DNA from: Candidatus Marinacidobacterales bacterium
GTDB lineage: Bacteria; Acidobacteriota; Vicinamibacteria; Marinacidobacterales; SMYC01
DNA: 64,000 nucleotides
Direction of reading: 5' to 3'
Assembly: GCA_965224085.1 (NCBI GenBank)
Contig: CBDCYI010000004.1
Location: 1,152,001 to 1,216,000, forward strand
Shown: positions 10,258 to 61,189 of the stretch, one piece after another
How the letters are laid out: each line of letters starts with the position of its first letter
Numbering within the stretch: position 1 is the first letter of the stretch
Notes under the pieces: model-generated
What the model was told of the DNA's origin: nothing
Seen by the model: the letters and a program-made list of their open reading frames with translations, nothing else
Databases searched by the model: none
Position numbers and translations under genes: made by a program

Positions 10258-10333
10258 TGGCATCCCCGACGGGAGTCGAACCCGTGTTGCCGCCGTGAAA
10301 GGGCGGAGTCCTAGGCCACTAGACGACGGGGAC
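10258..10333 (-). tRNA. tRNA-Glu: tRNA-Glu (TTC)
   Basis: GTCCCCGTCGTCTAGTGGCCTAGGACTCCGCCCTTTCACGGCGGCAACACGGGTTCGACTCCCGTCGGGGATGCCA, 76 nt, full cloverleaf with CCA. Confidence 0.97.
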
Positions 10334-55624: not shown

Positions 55625-56493
55625 ATGCTCCGTGTTCTCATCTTCCTCGTCTCTCTCGGAACCCGTGCGATCCGGGCGATGTGTCGTCGCCGAGCCGGCC
55701 TCCCCTCGAGGACGCGGACCGCGCGTTCTGGGTGGCGCTCCGCCAATCCTGGCCCGGGTGGGCTAGTCGCTTGGTCATCGTCAACGCGGACACGGTCGCG
55801 CGGTGGAATCGGGATCAATTCCGACGATACTGGGCAAAGATCTCGCGGAGACGTTATCCGGGACGACCTCGAGTGGATGGCGAGATTCGCCGGCTCATCC
55901 GGACCATGGCTCAGGATGGCTGGGGCGCACCGCGTATCCACGCGGAGCTCACGAAGCTCGGATTCATCGTGTCCGAGATGACGGTGTCGCGATACTTGCC
56001 GCGGCGCCCAGCCGAGCCCGACCAAGTGAAGCGATGGATAGCGTTCTTGCGCAACCACAAGGACGACATTGCTGCGATGGATCTGTTCACGGTGCCGACG
56101 GCGTCGCTTCGGCTGCTGTACGGCTTCTTCGTCATCGAGCACGGCCGTCGGCATATCGTTCACTTCAACGCCACGTTCCATCCGACGTCCGCTTGGGTGA
56201 TGCAGCAACTGCGTGAGGCGTTTCCCTACGACACGGCGCCGAGATGCCTCATCTTTGACGGCGACGCGATCTTCAGCCCGGCGGTCGTCAAGTTCATAAG
56301 GGCCATGGGCACAAAGCCTATTCACCTCGTATCGCAGCCCTTGGCAAAACGGAACCGCCGAGCGCTAGATCGGCAGCTGTCGGCGCGAGCTCCTCGAGCA
56401 CGTCGTAGTTCTGGGCAAGCGCCATCTCGTCCGACTCGTGCGAGCTTACATCGCTTACTATCACGAGGACCGTTGCCATTTGGGCCTCGGTAA
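55625..56493 (+). mobile_element. integrase-core (IS3/IS481-like) transposase pseudogene
   Basis: PGRPR, WGAPRIHAEL, AMDLFTV, LIFDGD; frameshifts; cut after HLGLGK at 56493. Confidence 0.85.
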
Positions 56494-56520
56494 GGTACTT
56501 TCGAGTGAACGAACGATTTC

Positions 56521-56570
56521 GGTCACTCTCCGATGACCTCCGCCCACGCGGGCGGTGCCATTGCTGTCAA
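56521..56570 (-). mobile_element. diverged IS110 left-end fragment
   Basis: 44/50 identity to 56787-56836. Confidence 0.8.
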
Positions 56571-56786
56571 GTTTTCCACGGCCTGACGGCCACCCCGAAT
56601 GAATGAAACGCGGTAGTCTCTGGAGGTGGCACCGGCTCAACACGACGCCTGAGGGAGTTCGGTTTTGACGTCACTGCCCCCAAACGCTACACCCTGAGTT
56701 TCTTATTAGTTGGGAGCGCGGACCACCAGATATAGTCGTTGCTACACCTAACCTGACCACACAATATTGTGGTACCTCACCTCAAT

Positions 56787-57042
56787 TTGACAGCAATGGC
56801 ATCGCCCGGGCGGGCGAAGGTAATCGGAGACTGACCCTTTGAGATCTGTGGGAGGAAGTAGACTCCGATCGAGTGCAGCCGGGAGTCAAGGCCGAAGGTA
56901 CGATGGTGCTCAGTGCCCGTTTGACAGCAAGGTCTGGAGGGTTAGCGGGAGTATCCGTGGTGGCATGTCGCGAGGCATGACCCCGTTCGAAAGAATGTTT
57001 TGAATCGCCCCTCTCTCCTGGTTGCGCCGAAAGGAGCGAGAA
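56787..57042 (+). ncRNA. IS110 left non-coding end, bridge/seekRNA candidate
   Basis: 256 nt upstream of transposase, apparently identical in copy 2 (60516-60771); hairpins incl. CATGTC-GCGA-GGCATG, TTC-GAAA-GAA, GACTCC/GGAGTC. Confidence 0.65.
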
Positions 57043-58431
57043 ATGGCACGTCGCGTCAGGACAAAAAGCAGTCGTCAAGCAAGACGGAAAAAATTGGAGC
57101 ACGAGCTCGACACGGTAAATCTAGATGCTGCAGGGATTGATATTGGAGCGGAGTCAATCGTGGCGGCAGTCCCGAAGGGGCGCACTCCTGAGGGCGAACA
57201 TGTCCGCACGTTTCAGAGCTTTGTATGCTCGCTGCGAGAGCTGGCCAATTGGCTGAAGGCGTGCGGCGTGTGCACGGTGGCGATGGAGTCGACCGGAGTT
57301 TATTGGATTTCACTGTACGAGTTGTTGGAAGACGAGGGATTTGAAGTCTATCTGGTCGATGCTCGCAAAGTGAAAAACGTATCTGGGCGCAAGTCAGACG
57401 TGTCGGATGCGGAGTGGCTGCAACAGCTGCATACATTCGGGCTACTCCCAAAAACCTTTCGGCCGGAATCGGCGATTTGCGAGCTAAGGGCATACACCCG
57501 CCAACGAAGCTCGCTGGTGGAGTCAGCGGCTCGCCACATTCAGCATATGCACAAAGCGCTCAACCAAATGGGGCTCCAGCTACAACACGTCCTGCGCGAC
57601 GTGACCGGAGTCACCGGCCTTGCGATCATCCGAGCGATCTTGAGAGGAGAGCGAGATCCTCGTGACCTAGCAAAACTGAGGCATGAACGTTGCCACAACG
57701 ATGAGGCCACGATCGCGAAAGCCTTAGAAGGTAACTATCGGAGCGAGCATGTTTTCGCTCTTCAACAGTCGGTGGAGTTGTACGATTTCTATCAAGAGAA
57801 AATGGAAGACTGTGACAAGCGGATCGAGAGATGCCTGTCCAAATTGGAGACCCGGCCTCAGGACGCTCGGCCTAAGCCGAAACCACGGACACGGCGAGCG
57901 CGTAGCGGCAACGGGCCGCGCTTTCCGCTCGCTGAGTCTCTATTGGGACTCACGGGGGTGGACCTAACCAGGGTTCCCGGCTTAGGTAGCTATGCCGTTC
58001 TGCAGCTCGTAGGAGAAACCGGTTGCGACATGAGCCCGTGGAAAAGTGACAAGCACTTCACCTCATGGCTAGCTCTCGCACCGAATAATAAGGAGTCCGC
58101 TGGTCGAATCTTTCGCCGGGCCACCCCAATGAGCTCCAGTCGTGCTGCAAAACTCTTTCGCCTCGCCGCGTGCGCTGTCCGCAATACCCAAACCGCGCTC
58201 GGCGCTTTCTATCGACGAATCCGATCGCGACGAGGTGCTCCAAAGGCCATCACAGCTACCGCCCGTAAAATAGCGACCATCTACTTCCGCATGCTTGCGA
58301 CTGGAGAGGAGTTCATTGAGCTCGGTCAGGACGCCTATGAAAGGCAATACCAGCAACGCCTCCTGAGTAATCTCCGACGCAAAGCTACCCGACTCGGCTT
58401 CAGCCTCGTTCCCGATCAATCCATATCATGA
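57043..58431 (+). CDS. IS110 family transposase/recombinase (intact copy)
   Basis: GIDIG, AMESTGVYW, GRKSDVSDA (DEDD), PNNKESAG serine motif, KAITATARK; AAGGAG RBS. Confidence 0.95.
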   Translation: MARRVRTKSSRQARRKKLEHELDTVNLDAAGIDIGAESIVAAVPKGRTPEGEHVRTFQSFVCSLRELANWLKACGVCTVAMESTGVYWISLYELLEDEGFEVYLVDARKVKNVSGRKSDVSDAEWLQQLHTFGLLPKTFRPESAICELRAYTRQRSSLVESAARHIQHMHKALNQMGLQLQHVLRDVTGVTGLAIIRAILRGERDPRDLAKLRHERCHNDEATIAKALEGNYRSEHVFALQQSVELYDFYQEKMEDCDKRIERCLSKLETRPQDARPKPKPRTRRARSGNGPRFPLAESLLGLTGVDLTRVPGLGSYAVLQLVGETGCDMSPWKSDKHFTSWLALAPNNKESAGRIFRRATPMSSSRAAKLFRLAACAVRNTQTALGAFYRRIRSRRGAPKAITATARKIATIYFRMLATGEEFIELGQDAYERQYQQRLLSNLRRKATRLGFSLVPDQSIS

Positions 58432-58709
58432 AAAATGCCTTCGGCCGGGAGTGTCAGTCGAAAGTACCCAATGAACTCCTCTCCAGTCGCAAGCGTTGTG
58501 GCAACGTTCATGCCTCAGTTTTGCTAGGTCACGAGGATCTCGCTCTCCTCTCAAGATCGCTCGGATGATCGCAAGGCCGGTGACTCCGGTCACGTCGCGC
58601 AGGACGTGTTGTAGCTGGAGCCCCATTTGGTTGAGCGCTTTGTGCATATGCTGAATGTGGCGAGCCGCTGACTCCACCAGCGAGCTTCGTTGGCGGGTGT
58701 ATGCCCTTA

Positions 58710-60069
58710 GGGCCTGTTACATATTAATATTTACAATACACTGTCATTGCTGCTATCCTCTGCTGGTTGCGAGACTATACGAGGATGGCAACAGATCGAA
58801 AGGTACCAGAGTCTGAGCGTCACTGGTTGAGGGTGCTGGGGACGTTGAACGAAGCGCAAGCGCGTGTTTTTGTGGCTCAACGGGCGCTTGAAGAAGGACG
58901 CGGCGGGGTCAGTCGGCTGTCACGACTTACGGGGATGTCGCGGCCGACCATCATGAAGGGCGTGGCGGAACTCAAAGCGAAAGCGCCGATAGTTGATGAC
59001 GACAGCGCCCGAGTGCGCAAGCCTGGCGGGGGGAGAAAGCGGGTCGAGGAGTTAGACCCGAGAATCGAGCGGCAGCTGAAGAAGATCCTCGACGAAAGAA
59101 CCGCCGGCGACCCGATGAAGCATCTCAAATGGACGAACAAGTCCACGAGAGCGATGGCGGAGGAGCTTGAACGCAAAGGTCACGATGTCTCGCACGTGAC
59201 AGTTGCTCGACGCCTAGGAGAAATGGGTTACTCGCTGCAAGCTAACGTGAAGAGACTGGAAGGGGATCAGCACCCGGATCGGGACAAACAGTTTCGTTAC
59301 ATCAACAAGCAAGTAAGCAAGTTCATGCGAAGCAAGGATCCGGTCGTGAGCGTCGATACCAAGAAGAAGGAATTGATAGGAGCCTTTGAAAACAGGGGTA
59401 AAACGTGGAGGAAGAAGAAGGGCGGAGGTGAGCCGGTTCTTGTACACGACTTCCCCAGTATGGCTGAGGGCAAAGCAATTCCCTATGGGACTTACGATGT
59501 GTCCCGCGACGAAGCGCTGGTCAACGTCGGCATTACTCACGAGACTGCGGAATTCGAGGTAGAAAGCATCCGGAGATGGTGGCGCATACTCGGAAAAAAG
59601 TCTTATCCGATGGCGAAACGTCTGCTTGTTTGCGCGGACGCCGGTGGAAGCAACGGAAACCGGCTGCGAGGCTGGAAGCTCCACCTCCAAAAGCTATCGG
59701 ACCAACTGAAGATTCCCATCACCGTATGCCACTATCCACCGGGAACCAGTAAATGGAACAAAATCGAACATCGACTATTCTCCTTTGTCAGCATGAACTG
59801 GAAAGGACGGCCTCTCGTGAGCTACGAGGCGGTCGTCAATCTTATCGGCAACACCAAGACCCGAACCGGCTTGAAGGTAAAGGCCATGCTGGACAAGAAC
59901 TCCTACGAGACAGGCCAGAAGGTCAGTAACGAAGAAATGCAGGAGCTTCGACTCAAAATCCACCCCTTCCACGGCAACTGGAATTACACTCTCCATCCCC
60001 GACGTGCTTGATTGAGGGTATTAATTCTTACCGAACTCGTATTTGTAAATATTATTATGTAACAGAACC
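58710..60069 (+). mobile_element. ISAzo13 family IS, complete, TSD TTA
   Basis: TIRs GGGCCTGTTACATATTAATATTTACAA / GGTTCTGTTACATAATAATATTTACAA; TTA at 58707-58709 and 60070-60072. Confidence 0.92.
58785..60011 (+). CDS. ISAzo13 family transposase
   Basis: GYSLQAN, HPDRDKQF, SVDTKKKE, ADAGGSNG, PPGTSKWNKIEHRLF, FHGNWNY. Confidence 0.93.
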   Translation: MATDRKVPESERHWLRVLGTLNEAQARVFVAQRALEEGRGGVSRLSRLTGMSRPTIMKGVAELKAKAPIVDDDSARVRKPGGGRKRVEELDPRIERQLKKILDERTAGDPMKHLKWTNKSTRAMAEELERKGHDVSHVTVARRLGEMGYSLQANVKRLEGDQHPDRDKQFRYINKQVSKFMRSKDPVVSVDTKKKELIGAFENRGKTWRKKKGGGEPVLVHDFPSMAEGKAIPYGTYDVSRDEALVNVGITHETAEFEVESIRRWWRILGKKSYPMAKRLLVCADAGGSNGNRLRGWKLHLQKLSDQLKIPITVCHYPPGTSKWNKIEHRLFSFVSMNWKGRPLVSYEAVVNLIGNTKTRTGLKVKAMLDKNSYETGQKVSNEEMQELRLKIHPFHGNWNYTLHPRRA

Positions 60070-61189
60070 TTAGCTCGCAAATCGCCGATTCCGGCCGAAA
60101 GGTTTTTGGGAGTAGCCCGAATGTATGCAGCTGTTGCAAGCCACTCCGCATCCGACACGTCTGACTTGCGCCCAGATACGTTTTTCACTTTGCGAGCATC
60201 GACCAGATAGACTTCAAATCCCTCGTCTTCCAACAACTCGTACAGTGGAATCCAATAAACTCCGGTCGACTCCATCGCCACCGTGCACACGCCGCACGCC
60301 TTCAGCCAATTGGCCAGCTCTCGCAGCGAGCATACAAAGCTCTGAAACGTGCGGACATGTTCGCCCTCAGGAGTGCGCCCCTTCGGGACTGCCGCCACGA
60401 TTGACTCCGCTCCAATATCAATCCCTGCAGCATCTAGATTTACCGTGTCGAGCTCGTGCTCCAATTTTTTCCGTCTTGCTTGACGACTGCTTTTTGTCCT
60501 GACGCGACGTGCCATTTCTCGCTCCTTTCGGCGCAACCAGGAGAGAGGGGCGATTCAAAACATTCTTTCGAACGGGGTCATGCCTCGCGACATGCCACCA
60601 CGGATACTCCCGCTAACCCTCCAGACCTTGCTGTCAAACGGGCACTGAGCACCATCGTACCTTCGGCCTTGACTCCCGGCTGCACTCGATCGGAGTCTAC
60701 TTCCTCCCACAGATCTCAAAGGGTCAGTCTCCGATTACCTTCGCCCGCCCGGGCGATGCCATTGCTGTCAAGTTGACGTTGCGAGCAAGCCGGCACCGCC
60801 GGATTGTCGTCTCTGCTCGAGTCAGGCGGCGCACGTGACGGCGTCCCAAGCGAGGAACGCGCGACCTCGTAGCTCTCGGTATTGTGATCCGGCGCGAGTC
60901 AGCGTTGTGCCGCTTCGCAATTGCACGCGCGCCGGATACAATCCTTACGTTAGACCGACACAACATCAAGAGAGAATATTGAGCGATGCCATCGCCAGAT
61001 CCGCCGTGTGACAACCCGAAGGCAGCATTAGAGCGATACATTGTCGAGTTATGGGACGAATATCTTCCATGGTACGATCGGTCCTCGTTAATCAATTACT
61101 ACCCGTGGGTTGTCATCCAGCTTCTGGCAATTGTCGCCGGCTTACCCAGAGCGAAGGCCATGCGCGTGGTTATGACGGCGTTTTTCCCG

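What the first reader, a model, noticed from the sequence alone, without database searches (positions are those of the whole stretch)
56787..57042. Structured 256-nt IS110 leader: candidate bridge/seekRNA
Seen: the leader between the element end (TTGACAGCAA...) and the transposase ATG is shared by both IS110 copies. It is full of stems: TCGCCCG/CGGGCGA, GACTCC/GGAGTC, and GNRA-capped CATGTC-GCGA-GGCATG, TTC-GAAA-GAA and GCC-GAAA-GG. The transposase keeps its DEDD and C-terminal Ser motifs. Known: IS110 recombinases such as IS621 use an RNA from the non-coding end to specify donor and target. Inference: this is a guide RNA for a potentially active programmable recombinase, possibly with a different architecture from IS621.
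Basis: partly seen in the sequence, partly recalled or inferred. Interest (0 to 1): 0.7.

Follow-up and report, generated by a model that had tools for sequence, protein, structure and literature searches.

The report
Bridge RNA of an IS110 element
The stretch in front of this jumping gene's recombinase encodes its guide ("bridge") RNA, which picks the tip of another jumping gene as landing site; the kind of system is known, but its guides are laid out in an unusual order.

Summary
The leader is real, and it is the bridge/seek RNA gene of an IS110-family element. It is identical in 9 genome copies, two of them in the window.

- **Conservation.** A covariance model built from 16 homologues finds the same two-loop motif directly upstream of the recombinase gene in 78 of 80 related loci from many phyla. 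16 of its 21 pairs show compensatory changes.
- **Guides.** After a conserved CCCGU, each loop carries 5 nt, then AG, then 3 nt. The loop 1 guide repeats the left junction. The loop 2 guide repeats the right end. A short 5' segment of loop 1 pairs with the right flank.
- **Covariation.** Each guide matches its own element's junctions (15/19 and 14/19), against 0 of more than 300 mismatched pairings.
- **Boundaries.** This resets the element to 56794-58464, with crossover dinucleotide AG and target TTGAC-AG-TACC. That target is the terminal inverted repeat of an IS6-family element. The genome holds 10 empty sites, 10-11 sites filled by the IS and 19 filled by a 66-nt mini derivative.
- **Differences from IS621.** The top-strand complement lies 5' of the bottom-strand match, which is the published IS1111 order, although the RNA gene lies upstream. 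No guide for the right donor half was found.
- **Not shown.** Transcription and activity.

The parts
56787..56791 (+). Left target half-site (LT) TTGAC. This is flank, not element.
   Evidence: All 10 left junctions and all 10 empty sites carry it. It matches loop 1 guide positions 1-5.
56792..56793 (+). Crossover ('core') dinucleotide AG, left copy.
   Evidence: AG is the only sequence shared by the left junction, the right junction and both guides. The empty site reads TTGAC-AG-TACC.
56794..58464 (+). The inserted IS110-family element, 1671 nt including the right core copy.
   Evidence: Occupied minus empty site. 7 full copies at 100% identity.
56802..56817 (+). Hairpin near the left end (TCGCCCG / CGGGCGA).
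   Evidence: There is a compensatory T-A to C-G change relative to the 66-nt mini copies. Most homologues have a hairpin at the same place, but it is not significant against shuffles.
56831..56835 (+). CTGAC, the inverted partner of GTGTCAG in the right end. It corresponds to the family's GAAAC (left) / GTTTC (right) subterminal repeat.
   Evidence: G[AT]AAC lies 31-41 nt after the core in 30 of 44 homologues, at +49 in 1 more, and is absent in 13.
56861..56887 (+). Hairpin GACTCC ... GGAGTC upstream of loop 1.
   Evidence: The sequence is not conserved in homologues.
56880..57039 (+). Match to covariance model R1: the two-loop RNA core.
   Evidence: 110.8 bits, E 8.6e-31. The window sequence was one of the 16 used to build the model.
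56890..56893 (+). Loop 1 outer stem, 5' arm (GGCC). Pairs with 56931-56934 (GGUC).
   Evidence: 4 of 4 pairs have compensatory changes; 99.7% of cells paired.
56897..56901 (+). Loop 1, 5' strand: GGUAC, complementary to the top strand G|TACC (second core base plus right target half). This is the short target guide.
   Evidence: 5 Watson-Crick pairs here. Family-wide, a run of 5 or more in 6 of 12 loci against 0 of 132 mismatched pairings. In the larger set, a run of 4 or more in 13 of 57 against 56 of 3158.
56904..56919 (+). Loop 1 inner stem-loop: UGGUGC (56904-56909) pairs with GCCCG (56915-56919).
   Evidence: The innermost pair is CG:41, GC:30, UA:10.
56921..56930 (+). Loop 1, 3' strand: UUGAC-AG-CAA, identical to the left junction 56787-56796. 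[quoted passage not shown]
   Evidence: 10 of 10 here. Matches of 9 nt or more in 15 of 19 loci against 0 of 342 mismatched pairings. 44 of 73 against 141 of 5671. Identity per position is about 1.0 for positions 1-8, 0.70 for position 9 and 0.12 for position 10.
56931..56934 (+). Loop 1 outer stem, 3' arm.
56945..56947 (+). Loop 2 outer stem, 5' arm (GCG). Pairs with 56996-56998.
   Evidence: 3 pairs, 2 with compensatory changes, 78% of cells paired. This is the weakest helix.
56948..56957 (+). Loop 2, 5' strand (GGAGUAUCCG). Its partner is unknown.
   Evidence: It is not complementary to the DNA next to the core. In relatives it is a same-sense copy of a left-end segment 21-27 nt after the core: 17 of 44 against 151 of 1870. 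The match is weak in this element.
56958..56985 (+). Loop 2 inner stem with the GCGA-capped hairpin (UGGUGGCAUGUC GCGA GGCAUGACCCCG).
   Evidence: 9 pairs, 6 with compensatory changes, 96.6% of cells paired.
56987..56996 (+). Loop 2, 3' strand: UCGAA-AG-AAU. The first 7 nt equal the element's right end 58458-58464, so this is the donor guide.
   Evidence: The 7-mer is found at the end of, or after, the recombinase gene in 14 of 19 loci against 0 of 318, and in 57 of 71 against 196 of 5269. Positions 8-10 show no match to the flank.
57033..57036 (+). GGAG ribosome-binding site.
   Evidence: It sits 6 nt before the ATG.
57043..58431 (+). IS110-family DEDD/Ser recombinase, 462 aa.
   Evidence: Pfam PF01548 7e-25 and PF02371 2.3e-08. 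NCBIfam NF033542 257.9 bits. Distant from IS621: found only by profile, E 5.2e-12.
58451..58457 (+). GTGTCAG, the subterminal repeat of the right end (GTTTC in the family).
58458..58464 (+). Left donor half TCGAA plus the right copy of the core AG. This is the end of the element.
58465..58468 (+). Right target half-site TACC (flank).
   Evidence: Present at all 11 right junctions and all 10 empty sites.
60516..60771 (-). The same leader in the second, inverted and broken copy.
   Evidence: model match at 60519-60678 on the minus strand.
56494..56570 (-). A filled target site holding the 66-nt mini derivative (ends of a related IS110, no RNA loops, no gene).
   Evidence: 19 such copies in the genome.

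Best explanation
**What it is.** The leader is the gene for the bridge (seek) RNA of an IS110-family insertion sequence, whose inserted DNA is 56794-58464. The RNA core (about 56888-56998) folds into two internal loops. Each loop is closed by an outer stem and by an inner UGGUG/CCCG stem-loop.

**Loop 1 reads the target.**
- Its 3' strand, UUGAC-AG, has the sequence of the left target half plus the crossover dinucleotide, so it would pair with the bottom strand. It runs on 1-3 nt into the element's own first bases.

**Loop 2 reads the donor.** Its 3' strand, UCGAA-AG, has the sequence of the element's right end plus the crossover dinucleotide.

**How it would act.** The DEDD/Ser recombinase, held on this RNA, would recombine the joined ends of the element with TTGAC-AG-TACC. 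That sequence is the tip of the terminal inverted repeat of IS6-family elements in this genome.

**Shown:** conservation, structure covariation, guide-junction covariation, empty and filled sites.

**Inferred:** that the RNA is made, binds the recombinase and directs recombination; the circular intermediate; which strand is exchanged first.
For: **Recombinase.** IS110 family with DEDD and Ser.

**Conserved RNA motif.** Model R1 matches directly upstream of the gene in 78 of 80 loci from other genomes. Of the two without a match, one has only 138 nt of upstream sequence and the other is truncated by another gene.

**Structure.**
- An unfitted MAFFT/RNAalifold alignment of 16 sequences gives 21 pairs, 11 with compensatory changes.
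- On 84 distinct rows, 95.2% of cells are paired against 81.5% in shuffles (0 of 500 shuffles reach it) and 33-44% when the partners are slid. 16 of 21 pairs have compensatory changes.

**Strand.** G-U pairs (for example GU:27 at one pair) and GNRA/UUCG loops fit only the + strand.

**Guides against own junctions.**
- Loop 1 guide: 15/19 against 0/342. Loop 2 guide: 14/19 against 0/318.
- Larger set: 44/73 against 141/5671, and 57/71 against 196/5269.
- 5' strand of loop 1 against the right flank: 6/12 against 0/132.

**Core covariation.** The core dinucleotide covaries between the two loops (AG/AG 48, AA/AA 28, mixed 5). It also covaries with the facing base of loop 1's 5' strand (C with AG 45, T with AA 29).

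**Prediction met.** TTGACAGTACC occurs 10 times (about 3.3 expected), always in the contexts where filled sites lie. 45 sites that differ only by AA in place of AG hold no insertion.

**Transfer to a second element.** A second, unrelated-looking IS110 element of the genome obeys the same rule: its guide TGTCA-AG-TTT equals its own left junction.
Against: - No guide for the right donor half was found at the place expected by symmetry. Own and mismatched pairings score alike, and there is no match to the right end either.
- Single-sequence folding is weak (z -1.79).
- No Rfam family matches, even at E up to 10.
- No sigma-70-type promoter was found in the leader or across the computed end-to-end junction.
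- Evidence for RNA is limited to short contigs from 4 metatranscriptome runs of a single study. They cover 56871-57167 and parts of the gene. The tool warns that such libraries can hold DNA.
- Many relatives lack a detectable match: left junction 29 of 73, right junction 14 of 71. The short target guide gives a Watson-Crick run of 4 or more in only 13 of 57.
- The first set of 19 loci was picked by a pattern that demanded AG, so AG invariance within it is by construction.
- Alignment A3 is fitted to the model, and the relatives are not independent.
- Three of the ten copies share the same IS6 body on the left with different right flanks. Some copies may therefore have spread as passengers of the IS6 element rather than by their own recombinase.
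Confidence: 0.88

Rival explanations
1. The leader is only a 5' untranslated region that controls recombinase translation. The repeated motifs are protein-binding sites in the DNA, not RNA guides.
For:
- No promoter or RNA ends were shown.
- The 5' strand of loop 2 has no DNA partner by complementarity.
Against: - A protein-site model does not predict that 7-10 nt inside two structured loops change in step with each element's flank and ends across phyla.
- It does not predict stems kept by compensatory and G-U changes.
- The family's mechanism with an RNA is established for IS621 and for IS1111 and IS110 members (passages seen).
Confidence: 0.04
2. The RNA gene is real, but this element is now mostly a passenger. 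Its copies multiplied inside IS6-family elements, which carry it in their end, rather than by RNA-guided recombination.
For: - Copies L003, L006 and L010 share 90 nt of identical IS6 body on the left and have different right flanks.
- The 66-nt mini copies lie in 13 copies of the same 872-nt IS6 unit, which are 97-99.9% identical to one another.
- The IS6 tip beyond the insert is kept intact.
Against: - The 10 left junctions lie next to at least 6 different upstream sequences.
- 10 empty sites remain, and all copies are 100% identical.
- Insertion is exact to the base at an AG site, and none of 45 AA sites is filled. This points to several independent site-specific insertions.
- The two routes are not exclusive.
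Confidence: 0.2
3. The match between the leader and the left junction is a leftover of target capture or duplication at insertion. It is not a functional guide.
For: In this element the match runs 10 nt and includes 3 nt of the element itself. This looks like a copy of the junction.
Against: - The same relation holds in loci whose sequences differ entirely, at a fixed distance of 107-179 nt and at a fixed place in a conserved loop.
- The partner strand of the loop is complementary to the other side of the target.
Confidence: 0.02

Closest known systems
IS621 bridge RNA (IS110 group; Durrant et al. 2024, PMC11208160; Hiraizumi et al. 2024, PMC11208158; passages read)
   Same: - DEDD/Ser recombinase.
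- RNA gene in the long left end, upstream of the recombinase gene.
- Two internal loops, the first for the target and the second for the donor.
- One long guide with the sense of the DNA top strand and one short complementary guide of 4-7 nt, both including the crossover dinucleotide.
- A 1-2 nt extension that matches the other DNA partner, like the 'handshake' bases.
   Different: [quoted passage not shown] Here it is the reverse.
- The crossover dinucleotide reads CT on the RNA-sense strand in IS621 and AG here, which is CT on the other strand.
- The extension sits on the long guide, not the short one.
- Read on the opposite DNA strand, the layout becomes that of IS621, as if RNA gene and recombinase gene were inverted relative to the crossover site.
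- The proteins are very distant: no phmmer hit, profile E 5.2e-12.
- No right-donor guide was found.
IS1111-type seekRNAs (ISEc11, ISPa11, ISKpn4; Siddiquee et al. 2024, PMC11187229; abstract and passages read)
   Same: - The top-strand complement lies 5' of the bottom-strand match.
- Subterminal inverted repeats are present (here only about 5 nt: GTTTC/GAAAC in the family, GTGTCAG/CTGAC in this element).
- Insertion is site-specific, into repeats.
   Different: - In IS1111 elements the non-coding region lies downstream of the recombinase gene. Here it is upstream: 249 nt on the left and 33 nt on the right.
- The repeats are shorter than the 7-17 bp quoted for IS1111.
- The position of the protein in the family tree was not tested.
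[quoted passage not shown]
   Same: An IS110/IS1111-family element whose natural target is the terminal inverted repeat of another mobile element.
   Different: - Here the host repeat belongs to an IS6-family insertion sequence (Pfam DDE_Tnp_IS240).
- Two different IS110-family elements use overlapping positions of the same repeat.
Miniature non-autonomous derivatives (MITE-like), and the separate ssr9 RNA modules of ISPpu9 (PMC12288879; abstract only)
   Same: Short derivatives of an IS110-family element occur apart from the recombinase gene.
   Different: The 66-nt mini here keeps only the two ends and no RNA loops. It sits in the same target site as the full element. Whether it moves was not shown.

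Membership tests
IS110-family bridge/seek RNA system | Recombinase with an N-terminal DEDD (RuvC-like) domain and a C-terminal domain carrying a catalytic Ser | tested here: met
   PF01548 and PF02371. NF033542 scores 257.9 bits against a cut-off of 140. D33, E82, D119, D122 and S352 are invariant. S352 aligns with the IS621 Ser.
IS110-family bridge/seek RNA system | Conserved structured non-coding RNA encoded in the long non-coding end | tested here: met
   The motif is found in 78 of 80 related loci. 16 of 21 pairs have compensatory changes. This is DNA-level evidence only.
IS110-family bridge/seek RNA system | The RNA is transcribed and bound by the recombinase | tested here: inconclusive
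   Contigs of 4 RNA libraries from 1 study cover 56871-57167. The tool warns that this does not show transcription. Binding cannot be tested here.
IS110-family bridge/seek RNA system | [quoted passage not shown] | tested here: met
   The predicted target was found as 10 empty sites.
IS110-family bridge/seek RNA system | A second loop with two segments matching the two strands of the donor (the element's ends) | tested here: inconclusive
   The left-donor guide is met (14/19 against 0/318; 57/71). A right-donor guide was not found.
IS110-family bridge/seek RNA system | Crossover dinucleotide shared by target, donor and both loops | tested here: met
   AG is in both guides, both junctions and the empty site. 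It covaries AG/AG 48 and AA/AA 28.
IS621-like (IS110 group) architecture | [quoted passage not shown] | tested here: not met
   The order is reversed and the core reads AG on the sense strand, against the statements read.
IS621-like (IS110 group) architecture | Promoter rebuilt across the joined ends of the circular form | tested here: inconclusive
   No sigma-70-type match spans the computed junction. The best is 8 of 12, lying inside the left end. The host's promoter type is unknown, and no circle was looked for.
IS1111 group | Long non-coding region, with the RNA gene, downstream of the recombinase gene | tested here: not met
   33 nt lie downstream and 249 nt upstream. The model matches upstream only.
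IS1111 group | Top-strand complement 5' of the bottom-strand match in the RNA | tested here: met
   GGUAC at 56897-56901 precedes UUGACAG at 56921-56927. The rule was read.
IS1111 group | Subterminal inverted repeats of 7-17 bp | tested here: inconclusive
   Only about 5 nt are present: GTTTC next to the right end in most relatives, and G[AT]AAC 31-41 nt inside the left end in 30 of 44.
Rfam families | A match to a curated covariance model | tested here: not met
   Nothing at gathering score in the window apart from a tRNA. Nothing credible at E up to 10 in 56400-58800.

The most novel reading that the evidence does not exclude
This widespread subfamily (46-55% identical recombinases in many phyla) may be a third layout of RNA-guided IS110 recombination.

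- **Layout.** The RNA gene lies upstream as in the IS110 type, but the guide polarity is that of the IS1111 type, with crossover AG on the coding strand.
- **Donor reading.** The 5' strand of the donor loop does not read the DNA next to the crossover. It is instead a same-sense copy of a segment 21-30 nt inside the left end, just beyond a hairpin. The right donor half would then be recognised through a folded or looped-out DNA, or through an RNA-RNA contact, rather than by simple pairing.
- **Mini copies.** The 66-nt mini copies keep exactly crossover, hairpin, that segment, both subterminal repeats and the left donor half. They would then mark the minimal donor that the full element can move in trans.
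Probability: 0.3. Interest if true: 0.65.

Novelty: new variant of a known kind. Interest (0 to 1): 0.45.

Why it matters
Bridge recombinases are being developed as programmable tools for inserting, cutting out and inverting DNA. The work so far rests on IS621 and its close relatives.

- **A distant, widespread subfamily.** It now has a simple, readable guide code: CCCGU, then 5 nt, the core, and 1-2 nt further, plus a short complementary strand. This gives a new set of candidate enzymes and a test of which features of the IS621 mechanism are general.
- **Biology of the genome.** The element shows that one mobile element can live inside the end of another. The tip of an IS6-family repeat is the landing site of two different RNA-guided elements and of their miniature derivatives, which then travel with the IS6 element.
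- **Practical use.** The guide rule sets element boundaries to the base, which repeat-based annotation got wrong by 7 nt on the left and 4 nt on the right.

Tried and rejected
**Searches and tests that led nowhere**
- Rfam: no family for the leader, at gathering score or at E up to 10.
- Megablast of the element against plasmids: no match.
- phmmer of the recombinase against PDB sequences: no hit. Only a 6-sequence profile reached IS621 and ISCro4.
- Sigma-70 promoter and terminator scans of 56650-57100: none. A hexamer scan across the computed end-to-end junction found nothing spanning it.
- Search for an empty site of the G013 relative by its shared left flank: 13 matches, none an empty site.
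- A first position-by-position covariation scan of the leader against the DNA found one informative position only, then stopped on a script error.
- RNA contigs: parts of the stretch, for example 56801-56867 and 57538-57939, have no or almost no cover in the 4 runs.
- Supplementary files of the papers are closed. Durrant 2024's supplementary tables of predicted bridge RNAs may already hold this subfamily, which bears on the novelty claim.

**Right-donor guide**
- The 5' strand of loop 2 was tested against the first bases of the element in the register that works for loop 1. The mean run was 1.0, against 1.09 for mismatched pairings.
- The antisense test against the first 45 nt gave 4 of 44 against 218 of 1870.
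- Sense and antisense tests against the last 60 nt gave no enrichment.

**Other negative tests**
- Positions 8-10 of the loop 2 guide against the right flank gave no signal: 0.89 of 3 against 0.72.
- Folding of the first 34 nt of the left end in 44 relatives gave a median z of -0.36, so the hairpin is not shown by this test.

**Ideas rejected**
- The 77-nt repeat is the IS6 element's own end. Rejected: IS6 copies without the 66-nt insert exist, and their ends then match 15 of 20.
- The first 50 nt of the unit are target-derived. Rejected: they are identical in all IS copies and differ from the mini copies at 6 of 43 positions.
- The RNA is read from the minus strand. Rejected on G-U pairs and loop types.

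**Literature**
- Nothing on IS110 elements targeting IS6/IS26 repeats was found with the terms.
- Nothing on miniature or non-autonomous derivatives was found in the preprint read.
- I did not see any paper describing an upstream RNA gene combined with the IS1111 guide order. That rests on the searches and on the passages read, not on whole texts.
Full report
**What is there.** Positions 56787-57042 precede an ORF (57043-58431, 462 aa). That ORF matches Pfam DEDD_Tnp_IS110 (7e-25) and Transposase_20 (2.3e-08). It also matches NCBIfam NF033542, 'IS110 family RNA-guided transposase' (257.9 bits, cut-off 140). The unit 56787-58468 occurs 7 times full length at 100% identity in the 6.87-Mb genome, besides partial copies. 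The second window copy is inverted at 60068-60771. Folded alone, the leader is only slightly more stable than shuffles: -100.1 kcal/mol, z -1.79, 8 of 200 as stable. Rfam has no family for it.

**A puzzle at the ends.** The first 50 nt of the unit (88% identity) and its last 11 nt also occur in a 77-nt repeat present 19 times in the genome. Thirteen of those copies form the end of an 872-nt IS6-family element (its transposase is Pfam DDE_Tnp_IS240, 6.3e-38). The IS110 unit sits exactly where the 77-nt repeat sits, next to several different upstream sequences and followed by unrelated flanks. The puzzle was solved only through relatives.

**Relatives and the guide code.** Recombinases about 50% identical occur in related genomes. 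One of those genomes has 8 or more copies with sharp boundaries. A pattern scan of one genome per species gave 561 matching stretches, of which the best 80 loci (46-55% identity, many phyla) were kept. Their leaders share two repeated modules: a variable 6-8 nt, then CAYUGGUG, a hairpin, CCCGU, 5 nt, AG, and 3 nt.
- I picked the 19 of 81 loci (80 plus the window) that show two such modules 45-120 nt apart. Because this pattern demands AG, AG invariance in this subset is by construction.
- The 10 nt after the first CCCGU recur as an exact match of 9 nt or more, 90-190 nt upstream, in 15 of 19 loci. Mismatched pairings give 0 of 342.
- The first 7 nt after the second CCCGU recur at the end of, or just after, the recombinase gene in 14 of 19 loci. 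Mismatched pairings give 0 of 318.
- In the window the first guide (56921-56930) equals 56787-56796. The second (56987-56993) equals 58458-58464.
- In relatives the right end reads GTTTC, 5 nt, AG, and identity between copies stops right after AG.
- The only sequence common to both junctions and both guides is AG, so AG is the crossover dinucleotide. The window element is therefore 56794-58464, and its target should read TTGAC-AG-TACC.

**Test of that prediction.**
- TTGACAGTACC occurs 10 times in the genome (about 3.3 expected by chance). It always follows the same upstream contexts as the filled sites. Six of the ten sit at the end of the IS6 element's body.
- Without the insert, that IS6 element is 806 nt long and its two ends match at 15 of 20 positions. 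The target is thus the tip of its terminal inverted repeat.
- In all, the genome holds 10 empty sites, 10 left and 11 right junctions of the IS, and 19 sites filled by a 66-nt mini element.
- The mini element shares 37 of the first 43 nt and 10 of the last 12 nt with the IS.
- 45 sites that differ only by AA in place of AG hold no insertion.

**Structure.**
- RNAalifold on an unfitted MAFFT alignment of 16 leaders gives 21 pairs in four helices, 11 of them with compensatory changes.
- A covariance model built from that alignment matches directly upstream of the recombinase gene in 78 of the 80 loci. Of the two misses, one has only 138 nt of upstream sequence and the other is cut by another gene.
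- The same model matches both window copies and nothing else in the window.
- On the 84 distinct rows, 95.2% of cells pair, against 81.5% in shuffles (0 of 500 reach it) and 33-44% when partners are slid. 16 of 21 pairs show compensatory changes. That alignment is fitted to the model, which leans the counts towards it.
- G-U pairs and GNRA/UUCG loops fit the + strand only.
- Each loop is an internal loop between an outer stem and an inner UGGUG/CCCG stem-loop.

**The other strand of loop 1.**
- The bases just 5' of CAYUGGUG are complementary to the second core base plus the first bases of the right flank.
- In the 12 of 16 loci with a known right flank, a Watson-Crick run of 5 or more occurs in 6, and of 4 or more in 7. 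Mismatched pairings give 0 of 132.
- In the larger set, a run of 4 or more occurs in 13 of 57, against 56 of 3158. With wobble pairs allowed it is 23 of 57, against 8.9% in same-core controls.
- In the window GGUAC (56897-56901) faces G|TACC.
- The base facing the core covaries with it: C with AG 45 times, T with AA 29 times. The core is the same in both loops: AG/AG 48, AA/AA 28, mixed 5.

**Larger set, with its misses.**
- Of the 89 matches, 5 identical rows were dropped.
- Of the 84 rows left, 73 had enough upstream sequence and 71 enough downstream sequence.
- A left-junction match of 8 nt or more was found in 44 of 73 (mismatched pairings 141 of 5671).
- The right-end 7-mer was found in 57 of 71 (mismatched pairings 196 of 5269).
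- The loop 1 guide matches the integrated left junction at positions 1-8 in nearly all rows, at position 9 in 70% and at position 10 in 12%. It therefore runs 1-2 nt past the core into the element's own first bases. In the first set, position 9 followed the element's second base in 16 of 16 loci, against 31% for mismatched pairings.
- The corresponding bases of loop 2 show no match to the flank.

**What does not fit.**
- By symmetry, the 5' strand of loop 2 (56948-56957) should pair with the element's first bases. It does not, in this element or in the family.
- Instead, in relatives it is a same-sense copy of a segment 21-27 nt after the core, just beyond a hairpin. Matches of 5 nt or more occur in 17 of 44, against 151 of 1870; matches of 6 nt or more in 7 of 44, against 33 of 1870.
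- In the window element that match is weak. I have no tested explanation.
- The hairpin itself is visible in most relatives but is not significant against shuffles.
- No sigma-70-type promoter was found in the leader or across the computed junction of the ends.
- Contigs from four metatranscriptome runs of one study cover 56871-57029, 56879-57167 and 56901-57134, and parts of the gene. This shows presence in RNA libraries, not transcription.

**Comparison with what is known.**
- Hiraizumi et al. place the two 'handshake' bases after the 3' guide, and place the RNA downstream of the core in the left end (passages).
- Here the long, top-sense guide with its extension is on the 3' side, the short complementary guide is on the 5' side, and the core reads AG on the RNA-sense strand.
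- Read on the other DNA strand this becomes the IS621 layout, with a CT core, the short guide 5' and the long guide plus extension 3'. Relative to the crossover site, the RNA and recombinase genes therefore lie the other way round.
- The window element thus combines the IS110-type position with the IS1111-type order, plus short subterminal repeats.
- Its protein is far from IS621: no phmmer hit, profile E 5.2e-12. I could not place it in a tree against IS1111 references.
- I found no description of this combination in the passages and listings I saw. Supplements were closed.

**Verdict.** This is a bridge/seek RNA gene (confidence 0.88) of a known kind of system, in a widespread subfamily whose guide layout differs from IS621. 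Activity and transcription remain unshown.

Noticed in passing
window 56494-56570 (-); 19 copies genome-wide (e.g. G000:C4:1656090-1656166): A 66-nt mini element sits in the same TTGAC-AG-TACC site as the full IS110. It consists of the first 43 nt of the left end (37 of 43 identical to the IS, with a compensatory change in the hairpin) and about 20 nt of right end. It has no RNA loops and no gene. It lies next to at least 4 different upstream sequences. No full-length parent with its sequence variant is in the genome.
   Followed up: partly
G000:C9:14880-15235 (-) and 8 more places; window 56571-56715: A second IS110-family element (428-aa frame, 37% identical, 9 model matches at 33.2 bits) has the guide TGTCA-AG-TTT, equal to its own left junction. 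It inserts a few bases further into the same IS6-type terminal repeat, in the opposite orientation. Window 56571-56715 is an internally deleted 145-nt remnant of it, keeping the left and right ends only.
   Followed up: partly
window 58469-60771: The second IS110 copy is inverted and broken. Bases 1-703 lie at 60771-60068 and bases 698-914 at 58710-58494. The two are separated by a 1357-nt insertion sequence encoding a Rhodopirellula-type DDE transposase (58767-60011, Pfam PF07592, 4.6e-138), with a 6-nt overlap that looks like a target duplication. Bases 1507-1532 follow at 58494-58469, directly abutting the first copy's right flank.
   Followed up: partly
window 55681-56493 (+): A 270-aa frame with a weak HTH_21 match (5.8e-4, below the cut-off) runs straight into the tip of the IS-type repeat at 56494. 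It looks like a transposase or integrase gene cut by an insertion.
   Followed up: no
G000, 45 places (e.g. C4:171261): TTGACAATACC is the other version of the IS6-type repeat tip. It differs from the target by one base in the crossover dinucleotide (AA for AG). It occurs 45 times and never holds an IS110 or a mini insertion.
   Followed up: yes
G000:C9:848940-849099 (-): A third bridge-RNA-like leader (78.8 bits) has AA in place of AG in both guides, like the alphaproteobacterial relatives. It lies in front of another IS110-family gene.
   Followed up: no
loci L064-L143, alignment A3 columns 104-113: The 5' strand of the donor loop is a same-sense copy of a left-end segment just after a hairpin (17 of 44 against 151 of 1870). 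No explanation was tested.
   Followed up: partly
G000:C11:1174771-1174826: The first 50 nt of the unit occur at 100% identity and are then followed by unrelated sequence. This is a truncated copy or another insertion at that point.
   Followed up: no
window 10261-10333 (-): A tRNA gene (Rfam RF00005, 56.3 bits). It is the only Rfam match in the window at gathering score.
   Followed up: no
plasmid records H7-H14 (Citrobacter, Enterobacter, E. coli): A 48% identical recombinase of this subfamily sits on many enterobacterial plasmids. Citrobacter accounts for 61 of the 404 matching records. It is annotated only as 'IS110 family transposase'.
   Followed up: no
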